This document shows positions 31,007 through 39,025 of a stretch of 39,025 nt of DNA, in pieces (position 1 is the stretch's first letter; each line of letters begins with the position of its first letter). The notes under the pieces were generated by a model. The model did no database searches. It was not told where the DNA came from and was given only the letters and a program-made list of their open reading frames with translations. The stretch is from an uncultured Thermotogae bacterium (lineage in GTDB: Bacteria > Bipolaricaulota > Bipolaricaulia > UBA7950 > UBA9294), in assembly GCA_964620325.1 (NCBI GenBank), contig CAZUIM010000019.1, forward strand, positions 1,142-40,166, given 5' to 3'. Made by a program: the position numbers and the translations under genes.

Positions 31007-32101
31007 CTACAGGAATCCGTGAGGGATTCGGACGGCGAACCGGCAGGCGTCGGCTCCGTCGAGCATCGTCTCGACCAGGTCGACCTGTGGCGACTCCCCG
31101 AACACGATCTCCCACTCCCGCACGTACCAGCCGGCGGAGCAGTGGCAGAAGGTGCGCGAGACGGGCCTTCGGTCTCGAATCGCATCGCGTACCAGCGGAC
31201 AGAAGCAGGCCGCGTAGCGCCTCTCGACCGGATCGGTCGCCTTCTCGTACGCCTCCGGACGGGCCGGGCGTCGCTCGATCATGAGCAGCGGTTGCACGCC
31301 CGACTCGTCGAGCCAGTACTTGCCTCCGAGGAACGGTTCGTCGGTCATCTTCTGCAGCAGCTTGCGAAGGTCGCGTCCGACCTCATCCCACGCGGCCTCG
31401 AGCAGCTCGCCACTCTGCACGATGTAGTGGTGGGCGCAGGCGTTGAGGATGCAGGCGCGCGCACGCTCGTCGGGGAGTTCGTGATCGAGCCGCGCCACCG
31501 CTCGCTGGACCCAGTCGGCCGCCAGGCTACCGTTCATCGTTTCGGCCAGTCCCTCGCTCCCGGCGAGGATCCGCTCGGCCGCCTTCGGATCGACGGCGCG
31601 GGCGACGCCACTGGCGAACGCGTCGAGCCAGATCGGCATGTGGTGCGGATACTGGACCTCCAGCGTGAATCGCTCGTCGGCGTCGACGGTGTTCAGTCCA
31701 TTGTGGTAGATGAACCGGACCGGATCGTCGCCGACGAGGATCGCGTTCTCCCCGATGAACGCGGCGAACGGGGCCCACGTGTCCGCGAGGTTCGTCCCCT
31801 CCGGACCGCCCTTCAGCGGGCCTTCGTGAACGATCGAGAACATCGGAAGCGCCGGCAACGTCTTCGTCTCGAAGCCCTCGCGGCAGGTCGGCTCGCGAAG
31901 CGGGAAAGCCAAGTCATAATCGGCCTTTCCGTGACGAGGAAAACCGGTCCGGAGGGCCATCGGGGGGGCATCCATCACGTCGAAAACGCTCGGGAGAAGG
32001 CTCGCGAGTTCACGCGCGACCTCGCCTTGATCGGCGAGGGACCTCCGCACGGTCAGCACGTGCAGCGGTTCGACGTGCTTGACGGGAAATTCGATCGGCA
32101 T
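31007..32101 (-). CDS. GyrI-like small-molecule-binding domain protein with a Cys/His-rich C-terminal domain of unknown function
   Basis: AGGAGGAGG RBS. The N-terminal roughly 150 aa (HVLTVR...GFETKTLPA...HEGP) fit a GyrI-like/AraC effector-binding fold. C-terminal cysteine motifs are ACAHHY, AACFCP, FCHCSAGW and DACRF. Confidence 0.65.
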   Translation of the reverse strand: MPIEFPVKHVEPLHVLTVRRSLADQGEVARELASLLPSVFDVMDAPPMALRTGFPRHGKADYDLAFPLREPTCREGFETKTLPALPMFSIVHEGPLKGGPEGTNLADTWAPFAAFIGENAILVGDDPVRFIYHNGLNTVDADERFTLEVQYPHHMPIWLDAFASGVARAVDPKAAERILAGSEGLAETMNGSLAADWVQRAVARLDHELPDERARACILNACAHHYIVQSGELLEAAWDEVGRDLRKLLQKMTDEPFLGGKYWLDESGVQPLLMIERRPARPEAYEKATDPVERRYAACFCPLVRDAIRDRRPVSRTFCHCSAGWYVREWEIVFGESPQVDLVETMLDGADACRFAVRIPHGFL

Positions 32102-32233
32102 CGCGGCCTCCTCCTGGCGTTCTGGCAGTCTCTAGATTGAGAGGGTCGCGCCGGCCCGTCACGCAAACGTCTCACGGGCGTGAAGGCCCGGGGACGACCC
32201 GTCCGCGCGCGGGCCGAATCCCCCAACCAGTCC

Positions 32234-32531
32234 CGGCCGCCCTTCAGCGGGCCTTCGTGAACGATCGAGAACATTGGGATCTCCGGCAACGTCTTCGTCT
32301 CGAAGCCCTCGCGGCAGGTCGGCTCGCGAAGCGGGGAGGCCAAGTCGCAATCGACCTTCCCGTTACGAGGAGAGCCGGTCCGGAGGGCCATCGGAGCGTG
32401 GCCGTTGCGTCGCCGATCCTCGGGAGAAGGCTCGCGAGTTCACGAGCGACCTCGCCTTGATCGGCGAGGGACCTCCGCACGGTCAGCACGTGCAGCGGTT
32501 CGACCGGCTTGGCCGGATCGACGACAGGCAT
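32234..32531 (-). pseudogene. Decayed partial paralog of the GyrI-like gene. It covers the N-terminal roughly 100 codons at about 90% nucleotide identity, is frameshifted and truncated, and has its own RBS.
   Basis: 32234-32531 aligns to 31806-32090. Examples are CCCTTCAGCGGGCCTTCGTGAACGATCGAGAACAT and CTCGCCTTGATCGGCGAGGGACCTCCGCACGGTCAGCACGTGCAGCGGTTCGAC. Translation gives MPVVDPAKPVEPLHVLTVRRSLADQGEVARELASLLP, then a frame change to MALRTG...CREGFETKTLPEIPMFSIVHEGPLKGG. Confidence 0.6.
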
Positions 32532-32629
32532 CGGATCTTCCTTCCTTGGCGGTGGAACCGTGCAAACGATCGTCGACTCGCGTGAATCATCGTCTCGCAC
32601 CGGGTCAAGGCACCGCGTTCCGGCGGGGG

Positions 32630-36064: not shown

Positions 36065-37274
36065 TCAATCCGTGGGAGCGGTTCGCGGCGACTCCGGCGT
36101 ATCCGCCGCCAGTCCGAGGCGGATGGCGGCGGAGTGGATTGTACCAGCCTCCGTCTCGCCGAGGTAGCACGAAAGGTCCATCGCGCGAGATTCAATGTCG
36201 TAGATCGACGTATAGACCGTGCGAATGGGGTGAAGATCGCCTTGCGCCCGCGGTCCACAAAGCACGTCGAACGACGCTTCACGGGCAATGCCCGCGAGTC
36301 GCGCCCGCGTGATCGGTTCTTGTGTCTCCAATGCACGCTTTACAGTCCGGTATCGCTCGTAGACGAAGCCTTGCTCCAGCCCGTCTCCCTCGGGAAGCGC
36401 GTCAGTATGGTCGAATCGAGAAAGCGCGAAATTCGTCATCACCAAGGGCTCGCCGTCTTCCTTGGTGGGGATGATTCGGTTGCCGCTGGGCGACTTCTCG
36501 AAGACGACCGATCGTCCGCGGGCATCAGCGACCAGATAGAGTGACGGAGTGAACATGTAATACGTGCGTAAAGAGAGAAGCGCCTCCATCGCGTCATCCG
36601 TGTCCGCGCATGTCCAGCAAGAACCGCACGACCTGTAACTCATTGAGTCCCGCTTCGGGCTGCCGGACCGGATCGTACGAGTACGCCGGCTTCGGACGGA
36701 AACCGCCGGTCAAACGGTAGTCTCCGTGAGAATTGCAGATGACGACGAGTCCTTTCTCGTTGATGCCGTCCATAGCCCCCATCAGATCGAAAACGACGAC
36801 CGATAACGATGCATACCCTTCATCCGGCGTCATGGCCAGAGCCAGGATTCTCGAAGCAGACGGGTGCGCGACCTCTCCGGTGAGATCGACACCCAAATCC
36901 ATGTTGCGAAGCACGTAGGAACGACCATCCGCCGTCCGCTGCTTCGGAATGAAACCCGCCGAGCAGCCGGGGAGCTGGACATCGAACCAGAGAGCGGAAA
37001 GATCGTGCGTCGGCTCCTCGGCTGACAAGCCGAAGGCATCGGCAACGCCGAACATCCGTTGGTAGAATGGGGGGAACCGAGCCTCGAAGAATCGGCGTTG
37101 CGCCTGGATTCGAGCGGCGTCTGGGCACGGCCGAGGAAAGGCGCCGGCTTGGTCTCGGCCGTAGGATCCGAGAGCACGCCCGATCTCTCGGTTCGTTCCG
37201 CGTAGACGCCACTCCCAAAGGGCCGCGTACGTCTCGTTGTCGCCGACTCGAAGTTGCGGGACGGGCAGGGGCAT
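36065..37274 (-). pseudogene. Ntn-hydrolase, peptidase C45/acyl-CoA:6-APA acyltransferase-like gene. It is split by a frameshift between two overlapping ORFs (36594-37274 and 36065-36643).
   Basis: ATG 37274 with an AAAGGAGG RBS. Candidate nucleophile region DVQLPGCSAGF at roughly residue 110. The downstream frame continues the same domain (VMTNFALSRF...). The two ORFs overlap by 50 nt in different frames. This is either a genuine pseudogene or an assembly or sequencing error. Confidence 0.5.
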
Positions 37275-37299
37275 GGGTCCTCCTTTGGTTCTAAGAAAC

Positions 37300-37312
37300 A
37301 TAACACTGTTAT
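37300..37312. promoter_or_regulatory. 13-bp palindrome ATAACA-C-TGTTAT embedded in a promoter-like sequence (TTCTAA-N17-TATATT on the plus strand). A half-site copy is at 35107-35119.
   Basis: Perfect 6-bp inverted arms around a central C. It sits in an unusually AT-rich patch. Confidence 0.4.
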
Positions 37313-37329
37313 ATATTGTACCTTGCGAG

Positions 37330-37815
37330 CTGCGCGCGTCAAGCGGCGGGTTCAGAGATCAGCGATGATGGACTGAAATAGACGGTGTCCGCAGAGGGGG
37401 AAAGGAAAATCGGCGCTTCGAATAACGGGGCATGCCATCGAGGTGCAGCGGTGCACGACACGCAACTTCGTAGTCAGGACTCCCGCTGCTCGGAGGAGCA
37501 GGGTCAAGTCTTGCAATGCAATATGAGTGACAGCTGGGATTCGCTAGATGCTAGTGCTGCAGTGCAAGACCTCGTATCTTGGCGGGGCGTCGTAGCTGTC
37601 GTGCATCTCTGGACTGAGTCGGATGGAGATGCTCGCGGGTGGGCAGATCGGGCAAGACCGGAACGACGAAGTCGTCAGTTCGCGGGTCAGATGGACCGCC
37701 CTCCCACAAGCCAGGACAGCATCAAGAGCGCAGCTCGCGCTGCAGCTCGTGTTTACGAGGTCAGGCTGGAGAGGGCAGCCCACACGAACTCTCCATCACT
37801 CTAGGATGACGGAGG
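37330..37815 (+). ncRNA. Candidate IS110-type bridge/guide ncRNA region (structured 5' non-coding arm of the IS)
   Basis: IS110-group elements encode their bridge RNA in the left arm upstream of the transposase (established knowledge). Here stems are visible, for example CTGCTC-ggag-GAGCAG (37481-37496) and GTCTTGCA...TGCAAGAC (37509-37571, 8-bp arms). The ORF-track ORF at 37385-37804 has poor coding character. Confidence 0.35.
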
Positions 37816-37820
37816 TTCCG

Positions 37821-38795
37821 ATGAACTGTATCGGTGTCGATGTCAGCAAGCAAGAGCTGGTCACCTTCGACGGTAGCAAGGAGCGGATCTTCCCCAACAC
37901 GAGTGGGCTAGCCGAGTTCGGTCGATTCCTCAAGCGATCGAAGGATGCGCTGGTGGTGTTCGAGCCGACGAGCACGTACTCACGCAGGCTGGAGGCGTTG
38001 TGCAGAGCGCAGCGCATCACGTGCTGTCAACTGAATCCACGTGTGGTTCCGCATCTGCGTCAAGTAGGCAAGGGACGCTCGAAGACGGACAGCACGGATG
38101 CAGAACTCCTGTATCGCTACGGGATCGAGCGCGGACACAGCGAAGCAACTCCACTCGAGAACGACGCACTGGCTGAATCGATCCAGGCGCGGCTCGCCTG
38201 CTACCGCGTGGCCCAGAAGGGGCGTGTTGCCTACCAGAACGTGTTCGAGGCGTTGAGCCAGGATCCGGAGACATCGGGAGCGCTGCTCGCTGAGCTTCGG
38301 ACGGAGATCTCCGAGCTGAAGAAGAAGGAGAAGCAGCATCTCGATGCGGCACAGCAGCTCGTCGAGGAAGATGAAGAGATCTCACAACGACTGAACGCGC
38401 TCCTCTCGATTCCCGGCGTTGGCCCGATCATCGCACTGACGCTCCTCGCGCTGTTCCGCAAGTACGCTGACGTGAATCGGGGCCAGATCGTCGCGCTGGC
38501 CGGATTCGACCCGATTCAGGTGCAATCTGGAACGTCAGTTCACGGGAAGAGCCGGATCAGCAAGCGTGGGAACCGAGAGGTCCGCAAGCGTCTGTTCGAA
38601 GCGACGTTGTCTGCCGCTCGCTACAACCCGAGCATCCGCGCGATCTACCGACGGCTAAAGGAAGCAGGGAAGCCGGAGAAGGTGGCGAGGATCGCAGCGG
38701 CGCGGAAGCTGCTACTGATTGCCCATGCTATCTACAAGAGCGGGGATCCCTACCGCGATCCGAACGTCGAGCATGAGTTCCGTAGGAACTCGTAA
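37821..38795 (+). CDS. IS110-family transposase (DEDD/RuvC-like N-terminal domain plus Transposase_20 C-terminal domain)
   Basis: ATG 37821 with a GGAGGT RBS 5 nt upstream. MNCIGVDVSKQELV...FEPTSTYSRRL (DEDD). C-terminal LSIPGVGPIIALTLLA...AGFDPIQVQSGTSVHGKSRISKRGNREVRKRL. Confidence 0.85.
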   Translation: MNCIGVDVSKQELVTFDGSKERIFPNTSGLAEFGRFLKRSKDALVVFEPTSTYSRRLEALCRAQRITCCQLNPRVVPHLRQVGKGRSKTDSTDAELLYRYGIERGHSEATPLENDALAESIQARLACYRVAQKGRVAYQNVFEALSQDPETSGALLAELRTEISELKKKEKQHLDAAQQLVEEDEEISQRLNALLSIPGVGPIIALTLLALFRKYADVNRGQIVALAGFDPIQVQSGTSVHGKSRISKRGNREVRKRLFEATLSAARYNPSIRAIYRRLKEAGKPEKVARIAAARKLLLIAHAIYKSGDPYRDPNVEHEFRRNS

Positions 38796-38816
38796 GCAAC
38801 TCAGCTTCTGAGTTGC
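38796..38816 (+). terminator. Hairpin GCAACTCAG-ctt-CTGAGTTGC directly after the transposase stop codon
   Basis: Perfect 9-bp inverted repeat. No strong U-tract. Confidence 0.35.
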
Positions 38817-39025
38817 CGTTGACCATTCGATACAGCATCTGAACATCCCTCTTGGATTTTCAAGTCGTGGGGTGGATATCCTCCCGGATCTTGTAATCTC
38901 GGTGGTCCCTGAGCATCGCCCAGATGACACGTACCAAGTGGCGTCCGAGTGATCGGACGGCTTGGTTATGTGGAGTTACCCCAGTTTCGCGGACAGTGTA
39001 GCACTTGACATTGCTGACGTACCAG

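What the first reader, a model, noticed from the sequence alone, without database searches (positions are those of the whole stretch)
37312..39025. IS110-family element with a roughly 500-bp structured 5' arm (bridge-RNA candidate) and reconstitutable split promoter
IS110-group elements encode a structured bridge or guide RNA in the long non-coding arm upstream of the DEDD transposase. The transposase gene here (37821-38795) is preceded by a roughly 500-bp lower-GC region with clear stems: CTGCTC-ggag-GAGCAG at 37481-37496, GTCTTGCA...TGCAAGAC at 37509-37571, and a nested GCTAGATGCTAGTGC. The window ends 15 nt after a consensus TTGACA (39005-39010). The proposed left end begins with TATATT (37312-37317). 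On excision and circularisation these would form a TTGACA-N17-TATATT promoter, the known activation mechanism of IS110/IS492 circles. The loops of the candidate RNA should encode the target and donor specificities of this element.
Basis: partly seen in the sequence, partly recalled or inferred. Interest (0 to 1): 0.6.

Follow-up and report, generated by a model that had tools for sequence, protein, structure and literature searches.

The report
IS110 insertion sequence with bridge RNA

Summary
The transposase call is correct. ORF 37821-38795 is an IS110-family DEDD/Ser recombinase with all five catalytic residues.

The proposed boundaries are wrong.
- Comparison with about 28 independent insertions of the same family puts the element at 37571-38840. 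It has a CT core dinucleotide at both junctions.
- The non-coding arm is therefore 250 nt, not 500 nt.

The true arm has the IS621 bridge-RNA layout.
- A target loop carries the guides GCAAGACC and GGGTCAG.
- A donor loop carries the guides ACAGCATC and TACGAG.
- The helices show compensatory base changes.
- The guides co-vary with flanks and element ends across loci.
- A covariance model built without the window hits 37636-37768 (E about 4e-33) and nowhere else.

A split promoter does form on circularisation, but from different boxes: TTGACC (38819-24), an 18-nt spacer, then TATCTT (37575-80).

- Its two stems sit in the left flank. One pairs the occupied half-site with an unoccupied target-like site.
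- Its TATATT overlaps the -10 box of a neighbouring gene's promoter on the other strand.
- Its TTGACA lies in the coding sequence of a second, opposite-strand IS110-family transposase.

That second element appears to use the same target site through an adjacent core dinucleotide. Verdict: a new member of a known kind.

The parts
37564..37570 (+). Left target half-site GCAAGAC, which is flanking DNA and not part of the element.
   Evidence: It is identical to the left target guide at 37652-58. Homology to relatives stops here.
37571..37572 (+). Left copy of the CT core dinucleotide; first bases of the element.
   Evidence: CT is the only sequence shared by both junctions in all loci. Removing the element with one CT restores the register of uninterrupted sites in L045 and L006.
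37571..37820 (+). Left end: the 250-nt non-coding arm that encodes the bridge RNA.
   Evidence: Twenty-two distinct homologous arms all start at CTCGTA. Short contigs break at this position. The arm folds better than shuffles, z = -2.39.
37575..37580 (+). The -10 box TATCTT of the split promoter. The predicted transcription start near 37587 is inferred.
   Evidence: The circle junction gives TTGACC-N18-TATCTT, 9 of 12 matches. No promoter passes the same criteria in the integrated state.
37600..37635 (+). 5' stem-loop CGTGCATCTC...GAGATGCTCG.
   Evidence: A 10-nt inverted repeat, 90% complementary. Compensatory changes are seen in relatives such as L008 and L031 (helix 1; 71% paired overall, weaker in the distant clade).
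37636..37768 (+). Bridge-RNA core: the target-binding loop plus the donor-binding loop.
   Evidence: A covariance model built from 21 other loci, without the window, gives 150.6 bits and E = 4.1e-33. All pairs are standard and it is the only hit in the window.
37637..37705 (+). Target-binding loop. The basal stem pairs 37637-44 with 37698-705. The distal hairpin is 37661-81.
   Evidence: Helices are 98% paired. Compensatory changes occur at 2 and 3 pairs respectively. Slid controls give about 40% paired.
37652..37659 (+). Left target guide GCAAGACC.
   Evidence: It equals the left flank 37564-70 plus the first core base. Guide and flank co-vary across loci, with exact 8-10 nt matches in L010, L031, L034, L045, L053, L054, L056 and L057. 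Permutation p is about 5e-5. It is the most variable segment of the core.
37684..37692 (+). Right target guide GGGTCAG, followed by the handshake dinucleotide AT.
   Evidence: It is the reverse complement of CT+GACCC, the family's right flank. The T/A position co-varies with GA/GT flanks. In the window 5 of 7 positions match (CTGAACA). AU is complementary to donor positions 6-7 (AT), as in IS621 (PMC11208158).
37710..37766 (+). Donor-binding loop. The basal stem pairs 37710-15 with 37761-66. The distal hairpin is 37726-48.
   Evidence: Helices are 99-100% paired. Compensatory changes occur at 2 pairs of the distal hairpin.
37716..37723 (+). Left donor guide ACAGCATC.
   Evidence: It is identical to the right-end terminus 38832-39. 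C to T changes together in the guide and the right end in the distant clades.
37754..37761 (+). Right donor guide TACGAG, followed by the handshake dinucleotide GT.
   Evidence: It is the reverse complement of the left-end start CTCGTA at 37571-76. GU is complementary to target positions 6-7 (AC).
37811..37815 (+). Ribosome-binding site GGAGG, 5 nt before the ATG.
   Evidence: It is invariant in the alignment.
37821..38795 (+). IS110-family DEDD/Ser recombinase gene, 324 aa, intact.
   Evidence: D7, E48, D90, D93 and S236 align with IS621 D11, E60, D102, D105 and S241.
38796..38816 (+). Perfect 9-bp hairpin GCAACTCAG-CTT-CTGAGTTGC, within an insert of about 48 nt that most relatives lack.
   Evidence: z = -4.1. 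The downstream alignment shows the insert.
38819..38824 (+). The -35 box TTGACC of the split promoter.
   Evidence: The family consensus is TTGACA at the same place, 13-14 nt before the core.
38832..38840 (+). Right-end terminus ACAGCAT plus the right copy of the CT core (38839-40); last bases of the element.
   Evidence: Homology of all loci ends here.
38841..39025 (-). Flank: the end of a second IS110-family element. GA 38841-42 is its core copy. The stop codon is at 38860-62. The transposase 3' coding sequence runs off the window.
   Evidence: The last 36 aa are 78% identical to the 401-aa L008 transposase (NF033542). Junction logic comes from L008 and L017.

Best explanation
Window 37571-38840 is one complete copy (1,270 nt with both CT cores) of an IS110-group insertion sequence from a family common in Bipolaricaulota metagenome assemblies.

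Proposed mechanism (homology and covariation are shown; activity is inferred):
1. The element excises as a circle.
2. Joining the right end to the left end places TTGACC (38819-24) 18 nt upstream of TATCTT (37575-80). This creates a promoter that fires into the left arm.
3. The transcript, from about 37587 onward, folds into a 5' hairpin and two stem/internal-loop/hairpin modules.
4. The first module is the target-binding loop. It carries GCAAGACC, which has the same sequence as the left target half plus the first core base. It also carries GGGUCAG, which is complementary to CT+GACCC.
5. The second module is the donor-binding loop. It carries ACAGCAUC, which has the same sequence as the element's right terminus. 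It also carries UACGAG, which is complementary to the left terminus.
6. The 324-aa DEDD/Ser recombinase bound to this RNA pairs the circle junction with a site of the form GCAAGAC-CT-GACCC. It exchanges strands at the CT core.

Here the element sits at GCAAGAC-CT-GAACA. The last bases of the ideal right half are replaced by the terminus of a second, oppositely oriented IS110-family element occupying the adjacent GA core of the same site.
For: Protein:
- Pfam and NCBIfam assign the IS110 family.
- It aligns over its full length to the solved IS621 and ISCro4 recombinases, with all five catalytic residues conserved (residues per PMC11208158).

Boundaries:
- Twenty-two distinct arms and about 28 different flanks agree on the same first and last nucleotide.
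- Short contigs break there.
- Uninterrupted sites in L045, L006, L017, L020 and L044 have the reconstructed sequence in register.

RNA:
- Helices are 98-100% paired, with 7-13 pairs carrying compensatory changes. Slid controls give about 40% paired.
- A covariance model built without the window hits only 37636-37768, E = 4e-33.

Guides:
- Exact 8-nt identities link the arm to its own flank and its own right end in the window.
- The left guide tracks the flank across loci, permutation p about 5e-5.
- The right target guide and the left donor guide change together with their DNA partners.
- The left guide is hypervariable in an otherwise nearly invariant core.
- The order and logic of the guides and the handshake dinucleotides match IS621 (PMC11208160; PMC11208158).

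Promoter: it is present only across the circle junction.
Against: - No expression, circle or transposition data exist.
- Rfam has no matching family.
- The window's promoter is sub-optimal, 9 of 12 with an 18-nt spacer. This reflects an extra C relative to the family's TTGACA-N17.
- The closest clade's -10 box (TACCTT) fails the scan criteria.
- The second core base is not matched by the left target guide or the left donor guide in the window (G and A instead of T).
- The register of the left guide differs by one nucleotide between sub-clades.
- The right target guide matches only 5 of 7 positions at the actual site.
- Covariation comes from a few clades, so the number of independent events is small.
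- The outer structure is unresolved. A long-range stem (37622-29 with 37790-97) and a 5' hairpin plus 3' hairpin are both compatible with the data.
Confidence: 0.85

Rival explanations
1. The element spans 37312 to beyond 39025. It has a 500-nt structured arm. TTGACA (39005) plus TATATT (37312) form the circle-junction promoter.
For: Both hexamers and the stems exist in the sequence.
Against: - No relative shares any homology with 37312-37570 or, as part of the element, with 38841-39025.
- 37312-37570 folds like shuffled sequence.
- TATATT overlaps the -10 of a 10-of-12 minus-strand promoter upstream of the next gene.
- TTGACA lies inside another transposase's coding sequence.
- The covariance model finds nothing in 37312-37570.
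Confidence: 0.02
2. The conserved arm is only a cis-acting leader controlling transposase translation or stability. Target choice is made by the protein, not by an RNA guide.
For: - The region from the invariant GGATGGAGA to TCTCCATC and the ribosome-binding site could form alternative structures.
- ISPpu9-type small-RNA regulation is known in this family (cited in PMC11208160).
Against: - Four arm segments are identical or complementary to the flank and to both element ends.
- They co-vary with their DNA partners across loci. A leader-only model does not predict this.
- The left guide is hypervariable while the rest of the core is invariant.
Confidence: 0.05
3. This element and the adjacent opposite-strand IS110-family element form one composite unit that moves or is inherited together.
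For: The same tail-to-tail pair occurs in L008.
Against: - About 26 other insertions of the family lack the neighbour.
- In L045 the neighbour-type end is uninterrupted.
- The outer flanks of the window and L008 are unrelated.
- Each element has its own core duplication, so removing both from L008 restores one clean target, CAAGAT-CT-GA-CCCC.
Confidence: 0.03
4. The copy is a structurally intact but immobile relic. This is not exclusive of the best explanation.
For: - The -35/spacer region carries a 1-nt insertion relative to the family (TTGACC-N18).
- An insert of about 48 nt with a hairpin sits in the right end.
- The exact protein is not found on any other contig in the collection.
Against: - The ORF is full length and all catalytic residues are intact.
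- All four guides are intact, and the left guide matches the actual flank perfectly. This argues for a recent, guide-directed insertion.
Confidence: 0.15

Closest known systems
IS621 / ISCro4 bridge-RNA recombinases (IS110 group; Durrant et al. 2024, PMC11208160; Hiraizumi et al. 2024, PMC11208158; PDB 8wt6, 9t56)
   Same: - The domain order is the same, with the DEDD plus Ser catalytic set.
- The left end is long and the right end is short.
- The core dinucleotide is CT.
- The promoter is split across the right-left junction.
- The RNA has a 5' hairpin, a target-binding loop and a donor-binding loop.
- The guides follow the same order: left target, right target, left donor, right donor.
- The strand logic is the same.
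- A two-base handshake guide (AU) follows the right target guide, complementary to donor positions 6-7.
   Different: - The protein match is distant (E about 1e-20 by phmmer).
- There is no detectable RNA sequence similarity through Rfam.
- The right target guide is 7 nt, against 4 nt in wild-type IS621.
- The left guides match only the first core base in this copy.
- The arm is about 250 nt, against about 190.
- The hosts are uncultured Bipolaricaulota.
- The target is a different motif, (A-rich)AAGnn-CT-GACCCC.
IS1111-group elements with seekRNA (Siddiquee et al. 2024, PMC11187229)
   Same: They have the same transposase superfamily and an RNA-guided, site-specific insertion principle.
   Different: IS1111 elements carry the RNA downstream of the transposase and have subterminal inverted repeats. 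Here the RNA is upstream, the right end is only 43 nt, and no inverted repeats are visible at the ends.
ISPpu9 and other IS110 members inserted in repetitive extragenic palindromes (PMC12288879; statement in PMC11208160)
   Same: Insertion is into a short repeated sequence that recurs, sometimes as inverted pairs, in the host genome.
   Different: The nature of the repeat targeted here is unresolved. No separate downstream small-RNA gene was seen.

Membership tests
IS110 family, IS110 group (bridge-RNA elements) | Recombinase with an N-terminal RuvC-like DEDD domain and a C-terminal Tnp domain carrying the catalytic Ser. | tested here: met
   Pfam PF01548 plus PF02371. NF033542 scores 163 bits against a cut-off of 140. 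D7, E48, D90, D93 and S236 align to the IS621 catalytic residues.
IS110 family, IS110 group (bridge-RNA elements) | A long non-coding left end upstream of the gene, a short right end, and no terminal inverted repeats. | tested here: met
   The left end is 250 nt (37571-37820). The right end is 43 nt plus the core (38796-38840). No complementarity between the termini is visible by direct reading.
IS110 family, IS110 group (bridge-RNA elements) | A two-base core present at both junctions and once in the empty site. | tested here: met
   CT is found at 37571-72 and 38839-40 and in all loci. Empty sites in L045, L017, L020 and L044 carry a single CT in register.
IS110 family, IS110 group (bridge-RNA elements) | Sequence-specific insertion. 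| tested here: met
   About 28 different flanks share the pattern AAGnn | CT | G(A/T)CCC(C/T).
IS110 family, IS110 group (bridge-RNA elements) | A sigma-70 promoter rebuilt across the right-left junction of the circle. | tested here: met
   The window gives TTGACC-N18-TATCTT, 9 of 12. Eight of 19 distinct junctions pass the scan criteria and none passes in the integrated state. The others have TTGACA-N17-TACCTT. Function was not tested.
IS110 family, IS110 group (bridge-RNA elements) | A non-coding RNA with two stem/internal-loop/hairpin modules. | tested here: met
   Covariation counts. The covariance-model hit has E = 4e-33.
IS110 family, IS110 group (bridge-RNA elements) | Loop segments that pair with the target and donor halves and co-vary with them. 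| tested here: met
IS110 family, IS110 group (bridge-RNA elements) | RNA expressed from the circle, bound by the recombinase and required for recombination. | not testable with these tools
   This needs RNA-seq, junction PCR and a recombination assay.
IS1111 group (seekRNA in the right end) | A long right end carrying the RNA, plus subterminal inverted repeats. | tested here: not met
   The right end is only 43 nt. The conserved structured RNA lies upstream of the gene.
Any curated Rfam RNA family | A score at or near the family's gathering threshold. | tested here: not met
   Only three chance-level matches (E of 2.7 or more) were found, none of them in the arm.

The most novel reading that the evidence does not exclude
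Two different IS110-family lineages read the same roughly 14-bp site, CAAGAn-CT-GA-CCCC, on opposite strands. They use adjacent core dinucleotides: CT for this element, and TC (GA on the plus strand) for the 401-aa neighbour type.
- Each insertion therefore leaves most of the other's target intact.
- The two elements nest tail-to-tail repeatedly, as seen in the window and in L008.
- Separately, the window's left target guide (GGCAAGACC) resembles that of a 69%-identical relative (L008) rather than those of its 86-87%-identical relatives (GATGAAGGC).
- That pattern suggests natural modular exchange or re-programming of a single guide.
Probability: 0.5. Interest if true: 0.4.

Novelty: new member of a known kind. 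Interest (0 to 1): 0.3.

Why it matters
It adds a well-delimited, apparently intact bridge-RNA recombinase from an uncultured phylum.
- The target (GCAAGAC-CT-GACCC) and the donor junction are fully predicted and could be tested directly as a new orthologue.
- The family gives a clean natural illustration that the left target guide is the fast-evolving specificity determinant.
- The shared site with a second IS110-type element, if confirmed, would show how RNA-guided elements can stack at one locus.

None of this changes the known mechanism.

Tried and rejected
- Rfam at a permissive threshold found nothing relevant.
- An exact-protein look-up found nothing on record. A protein-pattern scan of GTDB genomes found no relative. 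A DNA pattern from the RNA core then found 7 MAG contigs.
- A search for a second copy in the window found none.
- I tested whether 37302-37570 is the right end of the neighbouring element. It is not. The sequences after ...GGGATGTTC-AG-nnCTT in the window, L008, L045 and L006 are unrelated.
- I tested whether the family target is the 3' end of an ORF (AAG-nnC-TGA, that is K-x-stop). The open frames are only 3-69 codons long, so the idea was dropped. The nature of the repeat stays unresolved.
- RNAalifold proposed a long-range closing stem (37622-29 with 37790-97). It is invariant, so covariation neither supports nor refutes it. It competes with a 5' hairpin that does show compensatory changes. 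This is left open.
- The covariance model does not detect the neighbour's left arm in L008 or L017. Candidate guides there are only 5-6 nt long.
- The in-frame upstream ATG at 37623 (a 390-aa ORF) was rejected as the start. Most homologues are 319 aa starting MxCIGVDV. The arm has indels that are not multiples of three, and it shows RNA-type compensatory changes.
Full report
OBSERVATION

The ORF 37821-38795 (+) is real. It is an IS110-family recombinase.
- Pfam gives DEDD_Tnp_IS110 and Transposase_20.
- NCBIfam 'IS110 family RNA-guided transposase' scores above its cut-off.
- It aligns end to end with the solved IS621 and ISCro4 proteins.
- D7, E48, D90, D93 and S236 correspond to the IS621 catalytic residues D11, E60, D102, D105 and S241 (residue roles from PMC11208158).

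The hexamers TTGACA (39005-10) and TATATT (37312-17) exist. The two stems exist but are displaced from the stated coordinates. They are at 37486-91/37496-501 and 37508-20/37558-70. Neither is unusual against shuffles. The stretch 37312-37570 as a whole folds like shuffled sequence, z = -0.86.

BOUNDARIES

The window holds no second copy, so I collected relatives.
- There are 1,307 homologues at E of 1e-20 or better. Those that carry a name are from Bipolaricaulota.
- I collected 57 loci.
- Alignment of upstream and downstream flanks shows that similarity between all copies begins at one nucleotide, window 37571 (CTCGTA...).
- It ends at one nucleotide, window 38840 (...ATACAGCATCT).
- About 28 different left flanks are represented.
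- Many short contigs start or stop within a few bases of these positions, as expected at the edges of a repeat.
- CT is the only sequence common to both junctions.

Uninterrupted sites exist elsewhere, and removing the element with one CT restores them in register.
- L045 reads ...AAAGGC-CT-GAACATCCCTCTTGGATTTTCAAGTC. This is the window's right flank joined directly to a left half-site.
- L006 carries a variant with a CC core.
- L017, L020 and L044 carry AAGnn-CT-GACCCC.

The element is therefore 37571-38840. It has a 250-nt left arm, a 975-nt gene and a 43-nt right end plus the core.

THE ARM

The alignment of 22 distinct arms (A1) has a nearly invariant core interrupted by a few variable patches. 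I read it with the IS621 rules (PMC11208160). Under those rules the left guides have the sequence of the top strand, and the right guides are complementary to it.

The window contains four guide segments, in the IS621 order.
- GCAAGACC (37652-59) equals the left flank GCAAGAC (37564-70) plus the first core base.
- GGGTCAG (37684-90) is the reverse complement of CT+GACCC, the family's usual right flank.
- ACAGCATC (37716-23) equals the right terminus (38832-39).
- TACGAG (37754-59) is the reverse complement of the left terminus CTCGTA.

Two-base 'handshake' positions follow the right guides. AU is complementary to donor positions 6-7 (AT), exactly as in IS621. GU is complementary to target positions 6-7 (AC) (for the rule; direct reading for the match).

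Across loci the guides move with their DNA partners.
- The left target guide matches its own flank exactly over 8-10 nt in L010, L031, L034, L045, L053, L054, L056 and L057. Each has a different sequence.
- The mean match to a locus's own flank exceeds that to permuted flanks, p about 5e-5.
- The right target guide has T where the flank is GA and A where it is GT.
- The left donor guide and the right terminus are both ...GCATC in one set of clades and both ...GTATC in the other.
- The left target guide is the most variable segment of the core, at 0.8-1.0 bit per column. The other guides are at 0.04-0.24.

STRUCTURE

I propose a model with a basal stem, an internal loop and a distal hairpin for each module.
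- Target module: 37637-44 pairs with 37698-705, and the hairpin is 37661-81.
- Donor module: 37710-15 pairs with 37761-66, and the hairpin is 37726-48.
- The helices are 98-100% paired across the 22 arms.
- Compensatory changes occur in both target helices and in the donor hairpin. Partners slid by 1-3 columns give about 40% pairing.
- A 5' hairpin (37600-09 with 37626-35) has compensatory changes in the near clade.
- RNAalifold instead closes the whole RNA with an invariant long-range stem. The data cannot decide between the two.

A covariance model of the two modules was built from the 21 other arms, without the window. It hits the window once, at 37636-37768. The score is 150.6 bits, E = 4e-33, with no non-standard pair. 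It hits nothing in 37312-37570. The arm folds better than shuffles, z = -2.4.

PROMOTER

- Joining 38838 to 37571 gives TTGACC (38819-24), an 18-nt spacer and TATCTT (37575-80). This is 9 of 12 matches with the key A2 and T6 positions.
- The integrated left junction has no -35 box.
- Relatives have TTGACA-N17-TACATT (10 of 12) or TTGACA-N17-TACCTT. The window carries one extra C after TTGAC.

TATATT overlaps the -10 of a minus-strand promoter, TTGACG-N16-TACAAT (37342-37315, 10 of 12). That promoter faces the C45/AAT-like gene that starts near 37301 or 37274.

TTGACA 39005 lies in the minus-strand coding sequence of a second IS110-family transposase.
- Its last 36 residues are 78% identical to a 401-aa protein in L008.
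- Its stop codon is at 38860-62.

The long stem pairs the occupied left half-site (TGCAGTGCAAGAC, 37558-70) with an inverted, unoccupied target-like site.
- That site is GCAAGAC-TT-GACCC on the minus strand at 37501-14.
- It has one mismatch to the ideal target, in the core.
- The same motif recurs in L015, L017, L034 and L035.
- Target-like sites also lie close to the insertions in L053 and L056.

THE NEIGHBOUR

In L008 and L017 the neighbour type starts with TACCAT after ...GGGG-TC. It ends ...GGGATGT-TC.
- Its target, GGGG-TC-AG-nTCTTG, is the reverse complement of this family's CAAGAn-CT-GA-CCCC. Its core is the adjacent dinucleotide.
- Removing both elements from L008 leaves AAGAAACAAGAT-CT-GA-CCCCGG.
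- This explains why the window's right flank is CT-GA-ACATCC and matches the right guide at only 5 of 7 positions.
- The order of the two insertions cannot be told from the final arrangement.
- The neighbour also has a split promoter (L008: TTGACA-N17-TACCAT). It has short candidate guides in the right order. These matches are only 5-6 nt long, and my covariance model does not detect its arm.

MECHANISM

What is shown: the element's family membership, its boundaries, the core duplication, a conserved structured RNA, and guide/DNA co-variation.

What is inferred by analogy with IS621: excision to a circle, junction-promoter transcription, RNA-bridged synapsis of the donor junction with the target, and Ser-mediated strand exchange at CT.

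COMPARISON AND NOVELTY

Every defining feature of IS110-group bridge-RNA elements that can be tested in silico is met. The IS1111 layout is not met. No Rfam family matches. This is a new member of a known kind.

It is worth recording for three things.
- The target and donor are fully predicted.
- The left guide is naturally hypervariable.
- The two-element shared-site nest is probable but only partly tested.

Interest is 0.3.

DEAD ENDS

These are listed under 'tried and rejected'. The main ones are:
- the K-x-stop ORF idea for the target;
- the idea that 37302-37570 is the neighbour's right end;
- the unresolved outer stem.

Noticed in passing
window 38841-39025 (minus strand); L008 4613-6061; L017 2-531: A second, different IS110-family element (401-aa transposase type) abuts this one tail-to-tail. 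From L008 and L017 its core is TC. Its target is the reverse complement of this family's target, using the adjacent dinucleotide. The same nest occurs in L008.
   Followed up: partly
window 37501-37514 (minus strand): An unoccupied site, GCAAGAC-TT-GACCC, has one mismatch (in the core) to the target predicted from this element's own guides. It lies 50 nt from the insertion and is inverted relative to it. Chance expectation for a match with at most 1 mismatch anywhere in the window is about 0.01 (my estimate). Similar nearby target-like sites occur in L053 and L056.
   Followed up: partly
L017 1452, 2614, 7202, 8673, 8892; L020 1105; L044 3277: Empty copies of the family target (AAGnn-CT-GACCCC) recur, five times in one 8.9-kb locus, with 30-60 nt of conserved upstream context. 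This points to a genomic repeat of unknown nature. It is not consistently the end of an ORF.
   Followed up: partly
L021 vs L025; L044 vs L045: The same element and the same right flank occur with different left flanks. This is either recombination between copies or chimeric assembly across the repeat.
   Followed up: no
window 38796-38816: An insert of about 48 nt carries a perfect 9-bp hairpin between the stop codon and the -35 box. In most relatives (319 aa) the stop codon TGA overlaps TTGACA. L006 and L039 have other inserts at the same spot.
   Followed up: partly
window 37652-37660 vs L008 and L001/L003/L044 arms: The window's left target guide (GGCAAGACC) resembles that of a 69%-identical relative (L008, GGCAAGACT). 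It does not resemble those of its closest relatives (GATGAAGGC, 86-87% identical). The rest of the arm follows the close relatives.
   Followed up: no
window 37315-37342 (minus strand): A near-consensus promoter, TTGACG-N16-TACAAT, faces the C45/AAT-like gene. The likely true start of that gene is the internal ATG preceded by AGGAGG near 37274.
   Followed up: partly
window 36065-36643 and 36594-37301 (minus strand): Two overlapping ORFs of 192 and 235 aa may be one frameshifted gene. The upstream ORF has a weak match to the acyl-CoA:6-APA acyltransferase (C45) family.
   Followed up: no
window 31800-32542 and 1-388: Direct repeats of 164 nt (91% identical) and 135 nt (85%) recur with a period of about 430 nt. 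A separate 79-nt repeat (86%) occurs 309 nt apart at the start of the window.
   Followed up: no
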